Below are positions 8,293-17,817 of a stretch of 64,000 nucleotides of DNA, piece after piece. The notes beneath the pieces were generated by a model, which saw only the letters and a list, made by a program, of their open reading frames with translations, did not search any database and was not told where the DNA came from. How positions within the stretch are numbered: the first letter of the stretch is position 1; each line of letters starts with the position of its first letter. A program made the position numbers and the translations under genes. This stretch comes from Escherichia coli (GTDB taxonomy: Bacteria > Pseudomonadota > Gammaproteobacteria > Enterobacterales > Enterobacteriaceae): NCBI RefSeq assembly GCF_041886205.1, contig NZ_CP169029.1. The stretch is one strand, 5' to 3'.

Positions 8293-8835
8293 ATGTTAAA
8301 CCGTGACTTCGATCATCTCTCAACGCTATTACATCTCTTTTTTGAACGTGAGGATATTTGCCAAAAGCTTAATATTATTGACCAAAACAATATCACCGGT
8401 TGGGAAGTGTGGTTCCAGGTAGAATTTGCTAATATGCTCTGCTCAACAGACCATGAATGGTGGCGTGAACAGGCACTTTCCTGTGATATGCGCAAAAAAC
8501 CTGAACGCCCGACACTACGCACAGATTTCTTACTACGTAAAAAAGGCTGGGCGCAAGATAGCTATATCGCGCTTGAAATAAAACAAAACAGTGACGCGAC
8601 CAGTTGTGTTAAAAATATGATCGCAGACTTAGAAAAAAGCGCCAAAATCAAACGTTCAGAACTCGAGTTACGCAGTTTCTGGACCCTGGGTATCACCCCT
8701 GTGATAGACAGAGAAAGGCTGGATTCTCTCATCGATTGCTATTTAGATGAGAAATTTTATCTTACTAAATCTCGTAAAAAACACGTTTTACTTAAAGAAA
8801 TAAATAATACACCATATTCCTATATTGTTATTTAA
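8293..8835 (+). CDS. Hypothetical 180-aa protein with PD-(D/E)XK-like motif, AT-rich
   Basis: 543-nt ORF in strongly AT-rich DNA where long ORFs are unlikely by chance; AAGGA upstream of ATG; motif D(TDFLL)...E-I-K (YIALEIKQ) spaced like a PD-(D/E)XK nuclease core; I do not recall a gene between tsr and btsT in K-12. Confidence 0.5.
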   Translation: MLNRDFDHLSTLLHLFFEREDICQKLNIIDQNNITGWEVWFQVEFANMLCSTDHEWWREQALSCDMRKKPERPTLRTDFLLRKKGWAQDSYIALEIKQNSDATSCVKNMIADLEKSAKIKRSELELRSFWTLGITPVIDRERLDSLIDCYLDEKFYLTKSRKKHVLLKEINNTPYSYIVI

Positions 8836-12498: not shown

Positions 12499-12832
12499 TT
12501 ACCTTAACCTACTCATACGAAGCGGACGAGGATAAAATCCTATCATTTTCCGTTCGCTTCATTATTTTATTTTCTTTCCAATGCCCATTCAAATTAAAAA
12601 TATAACTCTGCCATAACTTCCTGAACACAGATGTAATTACATTGCCACCTCTCATACTTTTAAAAACGATCCATATGACAAGTCGTCCTATTGGGGCGTG
12701 ATAGATGTATTAATTTCCAAATATGCAAACATTCTGATACAGTCCCAAAAAGAAAATAATTACCAACCCAGATAATCAGCAAATAAATTAATGACAGTTG
12801 AATTATAATCAACACGAATACAAGAGATTAAC

Positions 12833-14683
12833 ATGGCAACAATAATCCCAACAATCAGTAGCTGCAACGATAAAATTACTGCCGGAGAGAAAAGGCTGGC
12901 AAGAATTCTGGAAAGAGGACTAGGCGAAGAGTGCTGCTGTTGGTATGACATTCCCACGGGTGATAAGCATCTTCACCCAGATTTTATGATACTTTCGCCA
13001 GAAAAAGGCATTATTTTTCTCGAGGTAAAAGATTGGTTTATTACAAAAATAAAAAAAGCCAACAAGTCTAATGTGTGGTATGAGACACAAAATGGCATTC
13101 AATCTTTAAAGAATCCGATAGAACAAGTTAGGCGATATGCTTTCGAAGCTGTAAACCAGTTAAAAAAAGACCCCCTATTGCGCCAACAGGATGATCGTTA
13201 CAATGGCAATCTTCTTTTCCCCTATGGATATGGCGTCTACTTTAGTAATATTACACGAGAAGCATTAAATAATAAATTTACTCAAGAAGAGCTGCTCGGG
13301 ATCTTCCCATCAGATCTCATCATCTGCAAAGACGAACTAAATGAATTCATGTCAAAAGAGGATGTTTCATCTAAAATACATTCGTTAATTAAATATGACT
13401 TCAAATGTCATGCTACACAAGAACAGTTGAACAGGATTAGATGGCACTTATACCCCGATGTCAGAATAGAAAGGGAAAAGAGAAGTAAAAACCGTGATGA
13501 ATTGAGTGTCGATGCACCAACCATCATTTCTATCCTGGATACTCAACAGGAACAACTTGCCAGGAGTATGAGAGATGGCCACCGAATCATTCATGGTGTT
13601 GCAGGTTCAGGGAAGACATTGATCCTCTATCATCGCTGTCAGGAATTAGCGAAAAAAAATGACAGCGAAAAGCCAATACTTGTCATTTGCTACAATATTA
13701 CTTTAGCCAAAAAACTTCGGTCGATGTTCATCAATCATCCCTTTGCAGAGAAAATAAAGGTTAAAAATTTTCATGCATGGTGTTTCCAACAAATTAAAGA
13801 AAACAAGATCACCATTCCAGAAGGGGATAATATTTTTGAAAATATGGAGCAAGCGTTGACTGATGGTTTCAACACAGGAAAAATAAAACCAGAACAATAC
13901 AGCGCTGTATTAATTGATGAAGGACATGATTTTAAGCCCGAATGGTTAAAAATCCTTGCAAAAATGACTGACTCTCAGGACGAGAATTTGCTATTCCTTT
14001 ATGATGATGCTCAGTCAATTTACCAAAAAAAGAAAGCATTAGACTTTACACTGTCCAGCGTAGATATTAAAGCGACAGGGCGCACAACTATTCTTAATAT
14101 AAATTATAGAAACACACAGCAAATCCTACACTTTGCCAGTTGCATTGCATTTAATTATCTTAATAGCCATATCGATAGTTCTTTAACCTATCATAAACCT
14201 GCTGCGGGAGGAATGAATGGCGATTATCCCAACCTTGAACATTTCGACACACAGGACGAAGAAATAGCAAGAGCAGTCAAATGGATTACAGAGCAAAATG
14301 AACAAGGGATTCCGTGGTCTGAAATTGCTATACTAAGTCCATCAACTCATACCCTTTCTAACTCTCTAAGTTCTGTACTTGAATCGAAAAACATCCCCTT
14401 TAATCTTATTGTAAGCTCTGCAGATAAAAAATCCTGGACGCCAGAACAAGAGCGTGTTTCTGTGATGCCATTACCCAGCAGCAAAGGGCTTGAGTTTCAC
14501 TCAGTTGTCATTATTGACGCAGCGAGAACACGGGATAATAGCGATGATTTGAGTGAGGATATAAAGAGACTCTATGTAGGTTTTACCCGAGCACGTTGCA
14601 ATCTCTTGGTAACCTTGCACGGTGAAGGTGCGTTAAATGAGCATCTACTAAAAACCTATGAGCAAAGCCCACAATATATGTAA
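12833..14683 (+). CDS. NERD-domain nuclease fused to SF1 (UvrD-like) helicase; Nhi-like candidate anti-phage protein
   Basis: 616 aa; N-terminal NERD-like region with PD...(E)VK core (HPDFMIL ... IIFLEVKDW); Walker A GVAGSGKT, Walker B VLIDEGHDF, SF1 motif V/VI-like LPSSKGLEFHSVVII and LYVGFTRARCNLLV; AT-rich; occupies the slot that holds mrr-hsdRMS in K-12. Confidence 0.75.
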   Translation: MATIIPTISSCNDKITAGEKRLARILERGLGEECCCWYDIPTGDKHLHPDFMILSPEKGIIFLEVKDWFITKIKKANKSNVWYETQNGIQSLKNPIEQVRRYAFEAVNQLKKDPLLRQQDDRYNGNLLFPYGYGVYFSNITREALNNKFTQEELLGIFPSDLIICKDELNEFMSKEDVSSKIHSLIKYDFKCHATQEQLNRIRWHLYPDVRIEREKRSKNRDELSVDAPTIISILDTQQEQLARSMRDGHRIIHGVAGSGKTLILYHRCQELAKKNDSEKPILVICYNITLAKKLRSMFINHPFAEKIKVKNFHAWCFQQIKENKITIPEGDNIFENMEQALTDGFNTGKIKPEQYSAVLIDEGHDFKPEWLKILAKMTDSQDENLLFLYDDAQSIYQKKKALDFTLSSVDIKATGRTTILNINYRNTQQILHFASCIAFNYLNSHIDSSLTYHKPAAGGMNGDYPNLEHFDTQDEEIARAVKWITEQNEQGIPWSEIAILSPSTHTLSNSLSSVLESKNIPFNLIVSSADKKSWTPEQERVSVMPLPSSKGLEFHSVVIIDAARTRDNSDDLSEDIKRLYVGFTRARCNLLVTLHGEGALNEHLLKTYEQSPQYM

Positions 14684-14827
14684 AAATGATAAATGATCTC
14701 CATAACGCCCGGTAACGCGGTACCGGGCGAAATGAATGCATATCTAAGATATTAGTCACGCCTGATAGCCGCTACCAAAAACACCATCATCTCCCTCGCA
14801 TCTTTGCGGTGATAAAATCGTACCATT

Positions 14828-15121
14828 TTGCTGTTAAATTCCAGCGCGTTAGCCGCTGGAATTAACAAGATCAGACTTCCGGCAACGAAGAGCCAGTTAT
14901 TACAAAAATTACTGGCAAAAGAGATAAAAAGCATTGTTGACAACACATCGAAATATCCTGACTGGAGTAAACACGATGATATTAAAGCGAAACTGAAAGT
15001 TGAACTTATTCTGCTTCTACACAAGCATAAGTTCCCGTCAGTAGCGAATGATGATGTTTATATGGGTGTGCTGGCACAGGCAGAGAGTTTTAAAGAACAT
15101 CATATGAGTCCTATAAATTAA
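14828..15121 (+). pseudogene. Orphan ORF fragment without ATG start, possible relic of a displaced restriction cassette
   Basis: 97-codon frame beginning at TTG with no convincing RBS; reads like the C-terminal tail of a larger protein; located between the NERD-helicase gene and symE. Confidence 0.3.
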
Positions 15122-15299
15122 TCATGAAGGCTGGATACACTTTGTTATCCGGCCATTGTGAATTAACGTTAATTTTTCTTCCAAATCTTTCCAGTAACGC
15201 TTTTATTATTTTCTATTTTTAGCTGGACTTTCCCTGTATTTACTGATGATATGTCCAGGTATTTAGCGCGGTGCGGATGTGCGCCAACACACCCGCACC

Positions 15300-15376
15300 A
15301 CTCATCACAATCACTATTTTCAAGGAATAGCAGTTATGACTGACACGCATTTTATTGCACAACCGTTCGAAGCAGA
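15300..15376 (-). ncRNA. symR: Expected position of SymR antisense sRNA (type I antitoxin) overlapping the symE RBS and start
   Basis: Placement inferred from the known symE/symR arrangement; boundaries not determinable from sequence alone. Confidence 0.35.
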
Positions 15377-15677
15377 AGTCTCCCCGGCAAATAACCGTCA
15401 ATTAACCGTGAGTTATGCGAGCCGCTACCCGGATTACAGCCGTATTCCCGCCATCACCCTGAAAGGTCAGTGGCTGGAAGCCGCCGGTTTTGCCACCGGC
15501 ACGGCGGTAGATGTCAAAGTAATGGAAGGCTGTATTGTCCTCACCGCCCAACAACCCGCCGCCGAAGAGAGCGAACTGATGCAGTCGCTGCGCCAGGTGT
15601 GCAAACTGTCGGCGCGTAAACAAAAGCAGGTGCAGGATTTTATTGGGGTGATTGCCGGTAAACAGAAAGTCGCCTGA
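15336..15677 (+). CDS. symE: SOS-induced toxin SymE (AbrB/MazE-like fold endoribonuclease)
   Basis: 113 aa from ATG 15336 with AAGGAA SD; sequence [25 protein letters not shown] ... matches remembered SymE (YjiW). Confidence 0.8.
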
Positions 15678-15723: not shown

Positions 15724-17817
15724 TTATACCAACGCGCTCTCCATCTGTTTTTCAAATGCCTGACGAATTAATCCCATAATGTAAGGAAGTTGTGCGAGGT
15801 CGCTGAAACCAATTTCCACATCACCATTACCCCAGCGCCCAATATTTGTCACATCTTTGGCAATACCTTTCGGATCGACCAGTTCATGAAACTGCATATT
15901 AAGCGACAATCGCAGTCGGCTTTTTTGCGGCACAACATCAACAAAATTCGTTTCAGCTTTAAACGCAATATACAGCTTTAAAACTTCCTGCGTGATCCCT
16001 GCGTCCAGGCGCATAACTTCATCGCGAAGATGATCGAATAACACCCGGCTATGCGAACCATCAGCAAGAAAAGGATAATCACTCAGGCTGTAACTGGTTT
16101 TGTTTTCTGGCTGCCCCCGATAAACAGCTAAAACCTCTTCAGAAAGAGAAGGCGCTTGCCAGACCTGAACCGCGAGATCGGCCAGACGATCGGCTCGGGC
16201 GTGAATGGCGGCTTCATCCCATTTTTCGCACTGTCCAAGACCGATATTCAAATAAAGCGGGCTATGTTTAAAGCCATCTTCAATATCGCGTTTTTCCGCG
16301 AAAGGTCTGTCACTGTAGCGGGAGTTATAGCGCGTTAAAGTGAGATTCCCCAACGTATGTAACAGTTCTTTATGCACACGCTGCCAGTCGCTTCCCAGCT
16401 CTTCACGCCATTTAGCCGACAGATTTTCGTTCTGCGGCATAATGTGCTCAATCGTAAACTCTTCCACGCGCTCTCTGCGTTTATCGTTTTCCAGTCGTCG
16501 TAACCAGTAGCTGCGGCTGCGGAAGTTATAGAGATCGCGCACTTTTAATTCCCGTTTAAATTCATCATCGTTGGGGAAACGACGATATGAAGGCAGGTTC
16601 ATAAAATGTACCTGAATACTTTCCAGATATTTTTCTTTATTAATGACCTTATAAAAAGTGGCAAACGTCTTGTTAAGAGAATTCGTCGGAATCGCACATA
16701 CTGCACGGCGGAAAACATAAGATTCAATTAAACGAATTATGCTCAGGAAATCTTCGTGAGACAAATCGTCATTTTTATAGTCATGATAAAGCGCCAGTAA
16801 GAAAGGATACGCCACATCAACCTTTAACTCGCGCAAATCCTGAAAAGCCGTAGCAAGCGATTTGTCACTTTCTTTTCCCAATGCCATTGCACAGTAATAC
16901 TCCGCGTAGATATGAATATCTTCAACCAGCCGATCTACGCCTTTTTCAGCAACACTCTGGCTGCGGGCATGGAGTTTAAATGCCTCATAGACTTCATCTG
17001 TCCGAGGGATCTCCCCCGTTTTTACCGTCAGATAATGACGCATAAAACTGTCAAAATATTCGCTGTAACCTTGCTGACCAAAGGCGACTTCCATTGGACG
17101 CCAGTGATCTTCATACAACCGGGTTTGATGCTCTGGTTCGAGACCCATCAGAATAAAATTGCGCACCAGATCGGCCTGACTTAACGCCTTACCGGTGGAG
17201 TTCATACTTTCAAAAATCAGTTGCGGATTATCCTGACCACGATTAAGCGCCACATCGACAATTAATAACTTTGCTAACCCTCGACATAAGGGAATCAAGT
17301 CATCCCCGAGTTTGGCAATTTGCTCATCAAAGAAAGTAAAGTTTTCCATTATTCGATGGGAATAGTTTTCTGGCATTGGTCTTTGTTTTATTAACGCCAG
17401 CAAACTGTCTTTATCAGTCTCGGTCAGCAGTAATTTAAAACCTTTCTCGCCGGACTCATAAGGATTGAGCAAATAATAATTACGCAATTTCATTGCCGAA
17501 AAGCCATCAAAAACTTCGTCTTCGCCAAGATGGCGCGATAAAGCCTCAATCAGCAACATTGCGGTCGTCAGCCGCTGCTGACCATCAATGACCAGCAACG
17601 GAGAAATACCAGAAACCTGATACAACCCCTGCTCAATATAAACAACCGAACCGATAAAATGCGCTGATATATCGTCACGCTTTCCGGCACGAATGATGTC
17701 GTCCCAAAGTTGCCGACATTGTTGCCCGGTCCATGAATAGGTGCGTTGATAAATGGGAATAACAAACTGCTGCGAACGTTTTAAAAAATCGAGTAGGCGG
17801 GCTTCTGTAGCTTTCAT
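15724..17817 (-). CDS. Type IV modification-dependent restriction endonuclease, GmrSD family (DUF262 + DUF1524)
   Basis: 697 aa; N-terminal DUF262/ParB-like NTPase motifs (IPIYQRTYSW, IDGQQRLTT); C-terminal DUF1524 His-Me finger motifs (EHIMPQ, HTLGNLTLT); sits where mcrBC lies in K-12. Confidence 0.75.
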   Translation of the reverse strand: MKATEARLLDFLKRSQQFVIPIYQRTYSWTGQQCRQLWDDIIRAGKRDDISAHFIGSVVYIEQGLYQVSGISPLLVIDGQQRLTTAMLLIEALSRHLGEDEVFDGFSAMKLRNYYLLNPYESGEKGFKLLLTETDKDSLLALIKQRPMPENYSHRIMENFTFFDEQIAKLGDDLIPLCRGLAKLLIVDVALNRGQDNPQLIFESMNSTGKALSQADLVRNFILMGLEPEHQTRLYEDHWRPMEVAFGQQGYSEYFDSFMRHYLTVKTGEIPRTDEVYEAFKLHARSQSVAEKGVDRLVEDIHIYAEYYCAMALGKESDKSLATAFQDLRELKVDVAYPFLLALYHDYKNDDLSHEDFLSIIRLIESYVFRRAVCAIPTNSLNKTFATFYKVINKEKYLESIQVHFMNLPSYRRFPNDDEFKRELKVRDLYNFRSRSYWLRRLENDKRRERVEEFTIEHIMPQNENLSAKWREELGSDWQRVHKELLHTLGNLTLTRYNSRYSDRPFAEKRDIEDGFKHSPLYLNIGLGQCEKWDEAAIHARADRLADLAVQVWQAPSLSEEVLAVYRGQPENKTSYSLSDYPFLADGSHSRVLFDHLRDEVMRLDAGITQEVLKLYIAFKAETNFVDVVPQKSRLRLSLNMQFHELVDPKGIAKDVTNIGRWGNGDVEIGFSDLAQLPYIMGLIRQAFEKQMESALV

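What the first reader, a model, noticed from the sequence alone, without database searches (positions are those of the whole stretch)
12833..14683. Single-gene NERD nuclease / SF1 helicase fusion (Nhi-like) as candidate defence protein
The 616-aa protein combines an N-terminal NERD-type PD-(D/E)XK-like region (HPDFMIL ... FLEVKDW) with a compact UvrD-like helicase core (GVAGSGKT, LIDEGHDF, KGLEFHSVVII, YVGFTRARCNLLV). Nuclease-helicase fusions of this kind act as stand-alone anti-phage or anti-plasmid enzymes in other bacteria. It has its own SD, no companion methyltransferase and a GC-rich hairpin immediately after its stop.
Basis: partly seen in the sequence, partly recalled or inferred. Interest (0 to 1): 0.8.

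Follow-up and report, generated by a model that had tools for sequence, protein, structure and literature searches.

The report
Untested nuclease-helicase defence gene candidate
An intact E. coli gene in a well-known defence-gene hotspot encodes a DNA-cutting domain fused to a stripped-down DNA motor; it is a credible but untested anti-phage or anti-plasmid enzyme from a widespread family that resembles the known Nhi enzymes in layout but is not related to them.

Summary
Window 12833..14683 (+) is an intact 616-aa ORF with an N-terminal NERD nuclease domain and a UvrD-type SF1 helicase core. The nuclease residues E19, D50, E64 and K66 and all helicase motifs are invariant in 35 orthologues down to 41% identity.

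The window is E. coli. The gene is low-GC and present in about 2% of complete genomes. It sits in the immigration control region, in the slot where K-12 has mrr-hsdRMS. Orthologues lie at the same hotspot in Salmonella, Leclercia and Klebsiella, and in islands or on plasmids elsewhere. They have no conserved partner and are essentially absent from phages.

PADLOC matches it end to end with a candidate model called 'NERD+UvrD' (E 2.7e-140). A matching cluster in Millman 2022 has a defence score of 0.54.

It is not a member of Nhi or of the validated 'Nhi-like' family, because sequence tests fail. Only the architecture is shared. The helicase lacks the 2B domain and most of 1B.

The likeliest function is a stand-alone ATP-driven nuclease-helicase that degrades invading DNA. 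How it tells self from non-self is unknown, and I found no experimental test of this family.

Interest is moderate: a solid, already-catalogued candidate.

The parts
12822..12827 (+). Weak Shine-Dalgarno-like purine run AAGAGA, 5 nt upstream of the ATG
   Evidence: Read directly from the sequence. A partial match to the consensus only.
12833..14683 (+). Intact CDS, 616 aa: NERD nuclease fused to a minimal SF1A helicase
   Evidence: RefSeq annotates the same frame and start. PADLOC PDLC01087 'NERD+UvrD' matches at E 2.7e-140 over aa 1-599. dN/dS is 0.14 against the common E. coli allele.
12833..13450 (+). N-terminal nuclease domain (aa 1-206), predicted as one compact PD-(D/E)xK fold. The Pfam NERD match covers aa 17-110 (12881-13162).
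12980..13030 (+). Putative nuclease active site D50 ... E64-V-K66 (PDF ... EVKDW). E19, on the first helix, is also invariant.
   Evidence: Invariant in 35 sequences down to 41% identity and in alignment A2.
13451..13525 (+). Variable, low-confidence linker (aa 207-231) between the nuclease and the helicase
   Evidence: pLDDT below 50 in both models. Length and sequence vary in the alignment.
13526..14629 (+). SF1A (UvrD/PcrA/Rep-type) helicase core, aa 232-599, with no 2B domain and most of 1B missing
   Evidence: Pfam AAA_19, UvrD_C and UvrD-helicase. PDB sequence hits to PcrA, UvrD and Rep. Foldseek hits to UvrD, PcrA and Rep. In the PcrA alignment, PcrA residues 104-217 correspond to only 32 query residues and PcrA 382-549 to only 6.
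13595..13618 (+). Walker A / motif I, GVAGSGKT (aa 255-262)
   Evidence: Invariant G255, G258, G260, K261 and T262.
13916..13930 (+). Walker B / motif II, DEGHD (aa 362-366)
   Evidence: Invariant. Other invariant motifs: III YDDxQxIY 390-397, IV NYRNT 424-428, V SxKGLEF 549-555, VI YVxxTRA 581-587.
14706..14729 (+). GC-rich hairpin downstream of the stop codon (9-bp stem, 6-nt loop, no T tract)
   Evidence: Its function is undetermined, and it is not a canonical intrinsic terminator.

Best explanation
The gene encodes a stand-alone, single-chain immune enzyme. An ATP-driven UvrD-type (SF1A) motor is tethered to a metal-dependent PD-(D/E)xK endonuclease of the NERD type.

Proposed mechanism (inferred, not shown):
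- The motor loads on single-stranded regions, 3' tails or nicks of incoming or replicating foreign DNA, such as phage replication or recombination intermediates or entering plasmid DNA.
- It translocates 3'->5' and drives or feeds that DNA to the N-terminal nuclease, which cuts it and blocks accumulation of invader DNA.
- The nuclease domain may take over the DNA-handling role of the missing 1B and 2B domains.

No partner protein and no host-protecting methyltransferase is needed. Discrimination of self is presumed to rest on DNA structure or an infection-specific cue, and remains unknown.

Shown here by computation: the architecture, intact and conserved catalytic residues, purifying selection, accessory-gene behaviour, location in a defence hotspot, and the lack of a conserved partner.

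Inferred from family knowledge: nuclease chemistry, translocation polarity, coupling of the two activities, and the target.
For: Architecture and conserved catalytic residues.

Selection: dN/dS is 0.14 between two E. coli alleles.

Accessory-gene behaviour:
- GC is about 0.37 against about 0.52 in the flanks.
- Only 100 of 5426 complete E. coli genomes carry at least 80% of the 2.8-kb query that spans the gene and its flanks.

Location:
- The gene lies between yjiA and an hsdR C-terminal remnant plus symE. K-12 has mrr-hsdR-hsdM-hsdS in exactly that slot.
- The next gene is an intact GmrSD-like type IV enzyme.
- Orthologues occupy the same hotspot in Salmonella (yjiA|BrnTA|gene|hsdS fragment), Leclercia and Klebsiella aerogenes (next to yjiR, solitary).
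- Elsewhere they are in islands or on plasmids with no shared neighbour.

Defence association:
- Full-length match to the PADLOC candidate model 'NERD+UvrD', E 2.7e-140.
- The nearest named relative is the NERD-helicase that accompanies UG34 defence-type reverse transcriptases, E 1.4e-24.
- Millman 2022 Table S1 lists a NERD + pfam13361 SF1-helicase cluster (mean 623 aa, 1823 genes, 279 genera) with a defence score of 0.541, q = 0.
- Among 50,697 phage genomes there are only two partial helicase hits.

Precedents for single-chain nuclease-helicase defence: Nhi, Nhi-like, Hna and HmaA.
Against: - I found no experimental test of this family in the searchable literature. The library misses many subscription papers.
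- There is no expression data for this strain.
- The closest complete genome (strain 6EVA) carries the same gene inactivated by a single nonsense mutation, Q196*, so the gene is dispensable and can decay.
- No domain that would explain self/non-self discrimination was identified.
- The relative orientation of nuclease and helicase in the model is unreliable (pTM 0.59, disordered linker).
- I could not confirm that the Millman cluster contains this exact protein. The match rests on domains and mean length.
- I could not establish the origin of the PADLOC model name 'C3a187', or which PADLOC system uses it.
Confidence: 0.6

Rival explanations
1. It is a modification-dependent (type IV-like) restriction enzyme. 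The nuclease-helicase attacks DNA that carries a foreign methylation or hypermodification pattern, functionally replacing Mrr at the same chromosomal slot.
For: - It occupies the position of mrr in K-12, beside a GmrSD-like type IV enzyme.
- It has no cognate methyltransferase.
- The architecturally similar Nhi-like protein is escaped by phages that lose a DNA methylase.
Against: - No modification-reading domain (SRA, Mrr-N or winged-helix type) was detected by Pfam or suggested by the fold search.
- The Nhi-like precedent is not a homologue.
- Position in a hotspot says nothing about specificity.
Confidence: 0.12
2. It is an abortive-infection effector. The enzyme is held inactive until an infection cue releases it, for example a phage SSB-ssDNA complex or DNA damage. 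It then degrades DNA indiscriminately, the host chromosome included, killing the infected cell.
For: - Related single-chain helicase-nucleases respond to phage SSB, and Hna acts by abortive infection.
- NERD domains have been proposed as suicidal 'backup' effectors in BREX and Dnd contexts.
- The absence of any self-protection module fits a tightly gated toxin.
Against: - There is no evidence of toxicity or of an antitoxin.
- Nhi, the best-studied analogue, is reported to degrade phage-specific replication intermediates rather than kill the host.
- Nothing in the sequence distinguishes this reading from direct interference.
Confidence: 0.12
3. It is not a defence gene. It is a DNA repair, recombination or replication-restart helicase-nuclease (a miniature AddA/RecB/Dna2-type enzyme), or a maintenance or competition factor of mobile elements.
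For: - The helicase core is UvrD/PcrA/Rep-like.
- Family members occur on plasmids and megaplasmids: 138 records, including E. coli IncF plasmids and Ralstonia megaplasmids.
Against: - It is present in about 2% of E. coli genomes, has low GC and sits in a variable hotspot.
- Every NCBIfam repair-helicase equivalog scores far below its cut-off: at most 58 bits against cut-offs of 400-1700.
- The domain order, nuclease first, is the reverse of AddA/RecB.
- It has no partner subunits and no consistent link to replication or transfer genes.
Confidence: 0.1
4. It is a decaying, functionless remnant of a once larger system, for example a gene formerly embedded in the type I R-M operon whose remnant lies next to it.
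For: - An hsdR C-terminal remnant is adjacent.
- The nearest relative has a nonsense mutation.
- The neighbouring GmrSD-like gene is split or frameshifted in other strains.
Against: - The ORF is intact here, with all catalytic residues.
- dN/dS is 0.14.
- Orthologues stand alone in many genera, with a conserved length of about 615 aa.
Confidence: 0.04

Closest known systems
PADLOC-DB candidate model PDLC01087 'C3a187' (description 'NERD+UvrD')
   Same: End-to-end HMM match: aa 1-599 against profile positions 1-547 of 559, E 2.7e-140. The N-terminal 232 aa alone also match, E 3e-48. This is the family the protein belongs to.
   Different: It is a bioinformatic candidate only. I found no experimental validation, and I could not establish which PADLOC system definition uses the model or where its name comes from. 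The name does not follow the PDC-S## pattern of other PADLOC candidates.
Nhi (nuclease-helicase immunity, Staphylococcus epidermidis; Bari et al. 2022)
   Same: A single chain of about 610 aa, with an N-terminal PD-(D/E)xK-superfamily nuclease and a C-terminal SF1 helicase, stand-alone and with no methyltransferase. The proposed working principle is the same.
   Different: Nhi has an HsdR-like nuclease and a DUF2075 (PF09848) helicase. Here the nuclease is NERD and the helicase is UvrD-type, and PF09848 scores only E 2.1e-4. PADLOC's Nhi model matches only aa 235-436 at E 3.6e-9 and nothing in the N-domain. It is not a member.
Nhi-like (Bacillus cereus FSL H8-0482, validated by Millman et al. 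2022; PADLOC model PDC-S41)
   Same: 611 aa against 616 aa. It has an N-terminal nuclease with a PD...(I/V)E(C/V)K motif of the NERD type, a C-terminal SF1 helicase, and is a single gene.
   Different: There is no detectable homology beyond the active-site motif. BLASTP gives E >= 2.1, and hhalign aligns 37 columns at 6% probability. PADLOC assigns the two proteins to different models. Its helicase is DUF2075-type.
NERD-helicase associated with UG34 reverse transcriptases (PADLOC 'RTasNERD-Hel'; Mestre et al. 2022, cluster 485)
   Same: Same NERD-then-helicase order. It is the only other PADLOC model that matches both halves: full-length E 1.4e-24, N-domain E 2.2e-9.
   Different: That protein works next to a reverse transcriptase. 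No RT gene lies within about 15 kb here or in the other loci examined. The similarity is far weaker than to C3a187.
GajB of Gabija, and UvrD/PcrA/Rep
   Same: The same SF1A helicase motifs and structural matches to UvrD, PcrA, Rep and GajB 8sm3_B.
   Different: GajB acts with the GajA nuclease as a separate protein, and no GajA-like gene is nearby. UvrD, PcrA and Rep carry full 1B and 2B domains, which are largely or wholly missing here, and they have no fused nuclease.
Hna and HmaA (single-chain SF2 helicase-nuclease defences)
   Same: One polypeptide combining a helicase with a PD-(D/E)xK nuclease and acting alone against phages.
   Different: Those have SF2 helicases, carry the nuclease at the C-terminus, and are larger (about 840 and 1150 aa).
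Eukaryotic Schlafen group III proteins (SLFN11, SLFN14)

Membership tests
NERD (Pfam PF08378), PD-(D/E)xK superfamily | Significant match to the NERD profile | tested here: met
   PF08378, aa 17-110, E 1.5e-9, 38.8 bits. The domain is precomputed for nearly all listed homologues.
NERD (Pfam PF08378), PD-(D/E)xK superfamily | Conserved catalytic D ... (D/E)xK motif | tested here: met
   D50, E64 and K66, plus E19, are invariant in 35 sequences at 41-64% identity.
NERD (Pfam PF08378), PD-(D/E)xK superfamily | Restriction-endonuclease-like fold | tested here: met
   [not shown]
NERD (Pfam PF08378), PD-(D/E)xK superfamily | Metal-dependent nuclease activity | not testable with these tools
   Needs biochemistry.
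SF1A helicases (UvrD/Rep/PcrA type) | Motifs Q, I, Ia, II, III, IV, V and VI present and conserved | tested here: met
   QQEQ 238-241, GVAGSGKT, DEGHD, YDDAQSIY, NYRNT, SSKGLEF and YVGFTRA are all invariant or nearly so. Pfam AAA_19, UvrD_C and UvrD-helicase match, and there are PDB sequence hits to PcrA, UvrD and Rep.
SF1A helicases (UvrD/Rep/PcrA type) | Accessory domains 1B and 2B, as in UvrD, Rep and PcrA proper | tested here: not met
   PcrA residues 104-217 correspond to 32 query residues and PcrA 382-549 to 6. All NCBIfam equivalogs fall far below their cut-offs.
SF1A helicases (UvrD/Rep/PcrA type) | ATP-dependent 3'->5' translocation or unwinding | not testable with these tools
   Inferred from family membership only.
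Nhi (Bari et al. 2022) | Single chain with an N-terminal nuclease and a C-terminal SF1 helicase, about 610 aa, stand-alone | tested here: met
Nhi (Bari et al. 2022) | Sequence homology to Nhi over the whole protein | tested here: not met
   PADLOC's Nhi model covers only aa 235-436 (profile 183-339 of 470), E 3.6e-9. There is no N-domain hit even at E <= 1.
Nhi (Bari et al. 2022) | DUF2075 (PF09848) type helicase | tested here: inconclusive
   PF09848 scores E 2.1e-4 over aa 252-401, much weaker than the UvrD-type profiles.
Nhi (Bari et al. 2022) | Blocks phage DNA accumulation; escape through phage SSB | not testable with these tools
   Experimental.
Nhi-like (Millman et al. 2022; PADLOC PDC-S41) | Sequence homology to the verified B. 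cereus protein | tested here: not met
   BLASTP E >= 2.1. hhalign gives 6% probability over 37 columns. The verified protein hits PDC-S41 at 8.8e-76. PDC-S41 is not among the 25 best of the 37 PADLOC families matched by the full-length query, and it does not match its N-terminal 232 aa. Only the first 399 of 611 aa of the verified protein were available.
PADLOC candidate 'NERD+UvrD' (PDLC01087) | Full-length match to the model | tested here: met
   E 2.7e-140, aa 1-599 against profile 1-547 of 559.
Gabija (GajA + GajB) | Adjacent GajA (OLD-family ATPase-TOPRIM nuclease) | tested here: not met
   No such gene lies in the 30 kb around the locus. The GajB models match only parts of the helicase.
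UG34 DRT-type system with NERD-helicase | Adjacent reverse transcriptase | tested here: not met
   No RT is annotated nearby, and none appears in the orthologous loci.
Type IV (modification-dependent) restriction enzymes | A domain that reads modified bases, and dependence on target modification | tested here: inconclusive
   No such domain was found by Pfam or by the fold search, but an unrecognised reader cannot be excluded. Dependence on modification needs experiments.
AddA/RecB helicase-nucleases | Helicase first and nuclease at the C-terminus, with partner subunits | tested here: not met
   The domain order is reversed. AddA and RecB NCBIfam scores are about 28-30 bits against cut-offs of about 700. 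No partner genes are present.

The most novel reading that the evidence does not exclude
This is a third, independently assembled family of ~615-aa single-chain nuclease + SF1-helicase immune enzymes, alongside Nhi and Nhi-like. It uses a minimal UvrD-type motor without the 2B and most of the 1B regulatory domains, and it recognises foreign DNA without any modification system. Its closest solved structural analogues, for the whole chain and for the nuclease domain, are the eukaryotic antiviral Schlafens. It could therefore be a prokaryotic counterpart, or even a relative, of the Schlafen nuclease-helicase design.
Probability: 0.15. Interest if true: 0.7.

Novelty: new variant of a known kind. 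Interest (0 to 1): 0.45.

Why it matters
If active, this would add a widespread one-gene immune enzyme to the known repertoire. The matching cluster in the Millman 2022 table spans hundreds of genera, and family members also occur on plasmids and in cyanobacteria.

It would show that the 'nuclease tethered to an SF1 motor' solution arose at least three times from different building blocks.

It is compact, needs no partner, and sits in the classic E. coli immigration control region, so it is easy to test. It also bears on phage-therapy host range and on plasmid uptake in the roughly 2% of E. coli strains, and the many Enterobacter, Salmonella, Klebsiella and Vibrio strains, that carry it.

The open mechanistic question is how a lone nuclease-helicase without a methyltransferase spares the host chromosome. 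The same question is unresolved for Nhi, Hna and related enzymes.

Tried and rejected
1. Membership in Nhi. Rejected: only a partial helicase match to the PADLOC Nhi model and no N-domain match.

2. Membership in Millman's validated Nhi-like family. I recovered the first 399 aa of the verified B. cereus protein from the preprint's supplement. There is no significant similarity, and PADLOC assigns it a different model, PDC-S41.

3. GajB or Gabija, a DRT/UG34 system, a type I R-M subunit, and AddA/RecB. All rejected on missing partners, domain order or scores.

4. RefSeq's product name '3'-5' exonuclease'. No exonuclease domain appears in Pfam or NCBIfam. The newer RefSeq name, 'nuclease-related domain-containing DEAD/DEAH box helicase', fits better.

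5. The hairpin as an intrinsic terminator. There is no T tract and the scan does not call it.

6. Origin of the PADLOC name 'C3a187'. It is not in the held supplements of the PADLOC candidate preprint. My recollection that such labels may come from CRISPR type III accessory-gene clusters is unverified.

7. Literature searches for an experimental test of a NERD-UvrD single-gene system found nothing specific. The search terms were NERD + helicase + anti-phage; NERD + UvrD + defense; 'nuclease-related domain'; the accession WP_021557503; NERD + SF1; and E. coli nuclease-containing systems.

8. A sequence search of the PDB with the N-domain profile found no solved relative.

9. Phage genomes carry essentially no homologue, so a phage-replication role was dropped.

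10. Juxtaposition of the two active sites could not be judged.
Full report
**Observation.**
The ORF at 12833..14683 (+) exists, starts with ATG, is uninterrupted and encodes 616 aa. RefSeq annotates the same frame and start in near-identical E. coli genomes, and the N-terminus MAxxIP is conserved across the family. The gene has about 37% GC against about 52% in the flanks. The 'own SD' is a weak AAGAGA, 5 nt upstream of the ATG. The downstream GC-rich hairpin is real: 14706-14729, 9-bp stem, z -2.7. It lacks a T tract and is not called as an intrinsic terminator.

**Anatomy.**
Pfam gives NERD (aa 17-110, E 1.5e-9), AAA_19 (238-398) and UvrD_C (421-526, 537-596). I aligned 35 orthologues at 41-64% identity (A1).
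- The putative nuclease residues E19, D50, E64 and K66 (PDF...EVKDW) are invariant.
- All SF1 motifs are invariant: Walker A G255-T262, DEGHD 362-366, YDDxQxIY 390-397, NYRNT 424-428, SxKGLEF 549-555, YVxxTRA 581-587.
- A motif just before the linker, RxRWxLxP (201-208), is also invariant.
- HMMER alignment to PcrA pairs query 232-324 with PcrA 9-103, 357-526 with 218-381, and 533-594 with 550-618. The 1B region is therefore reduced to about 32 residues and the 2B domain to about 6. The motor is a minimal 1A/2A core. The PcrA domain boundaries come from my knowledge of the PcrA and UvrD structures.
- No NCBIfam equivalog is approached: at most 58 bits against cut-offs of 400-1700.

**Structure.**
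- The full-length AF2 model has pLDDT 77 and pTM 0.59, with a disordered linker at 207-231. The N-domain alone has pLDDT 81 and pTM 0.79 and forms one compact domain, aa ~1-206.
- Foldseek against the PDB returns UvrD, PcrA, Rep, Upf1, GajB and, at the top, human SLFN11 and SLFN14.
- A profile search of PDB sequences finds no solved relative of the N-domain.
- The inter-domain geometry is not reliable enough to judge whether the two active sites face each other.

**Family.**
- More than 7000 90%-identity clusters match at E <= 1e-10. The best 120 are almost all 613-636 aa, and nearly all carry NERD plus UvrD domains.
- The N-domain profile finds 236 50%-identity clusters at E <= 1e-30. The full-length ones are 590-650 aa with the domain at the N-terminus, so this N-domain is essentially tied to this architecture.
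- Members occur in Enterobacterales, Vibrio, Photobacterium and Microbulbifer. On plasmids they occur in E. coli (about 40% identical paralogues), Vibrio harveyi and Nostoc, and on the Ralstonia megaplasmid.
- Phage genomes lack the family: 2 partial hits in 50,697 records.
- Two E. coli alleles differ by 25 synonymous and 14 non-synonymous changes, giving dN/dS 0.14.

**Context.**
- The window is E. coli chromosome. The gene order is tsr, btsT, yjiX, yjiA | this gene | hsdR C-terminal remnant | symR/symE | GmrSD-like gene | yjiS | yjiR.
- K-12 has yjiA | mrr | hsdR hsdM hsdS | symR/symE | mcrB mcrC | yjiV yjiT | yjiS. The gene therefore sits in the slot of mrr-hsdRMS in the immigration control region, a classic variable defence locus.
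- Only 100 of 5426 complete E. coli genomes hold at least 80% of the 2.8-kb query that spans the gene and its flanks.
- Orthologues lie at the same hotspot in Salmonella (yjiA | BrnTA | gene | hsdS fragment), Leclercia (yjiA | gene) and Klebsiella aerogenes (yjiR | gene, solitary).
- In Vibrio, Yersinia and Microbulbifer, and on plasmids, the neighbours differ every time. No partner gene is conserved, and no methyltransferase, RT or GajA-like gene is nearby.

**Comparison with known systems.**
- PADLOC's best hit by far is PDLC01087 'C3a187', described as 'NERD+UvrD' (E 2.7e-140, end to end). The N-domain alone hits only that model and the UG34-RT-associated NERD-helicase (PMC9226505).
- Nhi has an HsdR-like nuclease plus a DUF2075 helicase in about 610 aa (PMC11232893). 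Its PADLOC model matches only part of the helicase here.
- Millman's 'Nhi-like' was so named for its domain organisation, with no sequence identity to Nhi (10.1101/2022.05.11.491447). I retrieved the first 399 aa of the verified B. cereus protein. BLASTP gives E >= 2.1. hhalign aligns only the PD..ExK core, at 6% probability. PADLOC assigns it to PDC-S41.
- This protein is thus an architectural analogue of Nhi and Nhi-like, not a member of either family.
[quoted passage not shown] It was marked 'known' only because UvrD_C was on their list of defence Pfams. It very probably corresponds to this family, and that marking would explain why it was never picked for testing.
- I found no experimental report on the family. 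The library is incomplete for subscription journals.

**Mechanism.**
The best-supported reading (confidence about 0.6) is a stand-alone defence enzyme in which an ATP-driven SF1A motor is coupled to a NERD endonuclease and degrades invading DNA.
- The two catalytic centres are shown to be intact and under selection.
- Nuclease chemistry, 3'->5' polarity, coupling and target are inferred from the families and from Nhi, Hna and HmaA as precedents.
- Self/non-self discrimination is unknown.
- Sub-variants that cannot be separated here are a type IV-like modification-dependent enzyme and an abortive-infection effector. The first is suggested by the mrr slot and by Nhi-like escape through loss of a phage methylase.
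- Non-defence roles are unlikely, given the distribution, the hotspot location and the scores.

**Verdict.**
- The 'Nhi-like' label holds only as an analogy.
- The family is already catalogued as a candidate in PADLOC, named by RefSeq, and present in a published defence-score table. The gene is therefore a good, testable candidate rather than a surprise.
- The points of some originality are its independence from Nhi and Nhi-like, the minimal motor lacking 2B and most of 1B, and the Schlafen-like structural echo.
- Interest 0.45; novelty: new variant of a known kind.

Noticed in passing
L001 15434-17284 (E. coli strain 6EVA), corresponding to window 12833-14683: The closest complete genome (99.9% identical over 2.8 kb) differs from the window gene by one nucleotide, C586T, which turns Q196 into a stop codon. 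The same gene is a fresh pseudogene there but intact in the window.
   Followed up: yes
window 15724-17817 (-): An intact 697-aa GmrSD-like (DUF262 + DUF1524) type IV restriction candidate: PADLOC Orf5 E 1.9e-223, HEC-06 E 3e-67, with a C-terminal part matching PDC-S18. In the other E. coli genomes examined that carry the same island it is split, truncated or frameshifted (L001, L015, L016).
   Followed up: partly
window 14828-15121 (+); the RefSeq-annotated part corresponds to 14912-15121: A remnant of the C-terminal end of a type I restriction R subunit (PADLOC REase_I, profile positions 959-1026 of 1029). No hsdM or hsdS follows. It is a relic of the hsdRMS operon that K-12 carries at this place.
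   Followed up: partly
window 15265-15341 (-) and 15336-15677 (+): The SymR antisense RNA (Rfam RF01809, 88 bits) and the symE toxin-like gene are retained between the two variable defence slots, as in K-12.
   Followed up: partly
window 8293-8835 (+): A low-GC (~0.37) 180-aa ORF lies between tsr and btsT. K-12 has only a 378-bp intergenic region there. The ORF has no significant Pfam or PADLOC match. It is annotated 'hypothetical protein' in strain 6EVA and as a pseudogene with an internal stop in strains XH990 and GF66.1.
   Followed up: partly
window ~26000-29500: A second low-GC stretch (GC 0.33-0.42). By offset from the 6EVA annotation it corresponds to a ~696-aa pentapeptide-repeat protein (about window 26506-28596) followed by an SdiA-regulated-domain gene. 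I did not examine it.
   Followed up: no
[not shown]
   Followed up: partly
L017 7043-8791 (E. coli IncFIA/IncFII plasmid NZ_AP027831.1): E. coli conjugative plasmids carry a ~40%-identical paralogue of the gene. It lies directly downstream of a DUF6710 gene on the same strand and near a RelE/NadS toxin-antitoxin pair. This may be a two-gene variant.
   Followed up: partly
L010/L011 10161-15725 (-) (Yersinia): The Yersinia orthologue sits beside an 1854-aa DUF4011/AAA_11/AAA_12/MTES_1575/DUF3320 helicase and a phage-type integrase. This looks like an integrated island carrying another large helicase-nuclease-type candidate.
   Followed up: no
L018 8298-10793 (-) (Vibrio harveyi plasmid p3): On this conjugative plasmid the orthologue is convergent with an 831-aa N-6 DNA methylase gene and lies near a fragment of a type I M subunit. 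This was the only locus examined with a DNA methyltransferase next to the gene.
   Followed up: no
window 19910-20866 (-): A 318-aa ORF annotated in relatives as an Rpn-family recombination-promoting nuclease/putative transposase, at the edge of the variable region just beyond yjiR.
   Followed up: no
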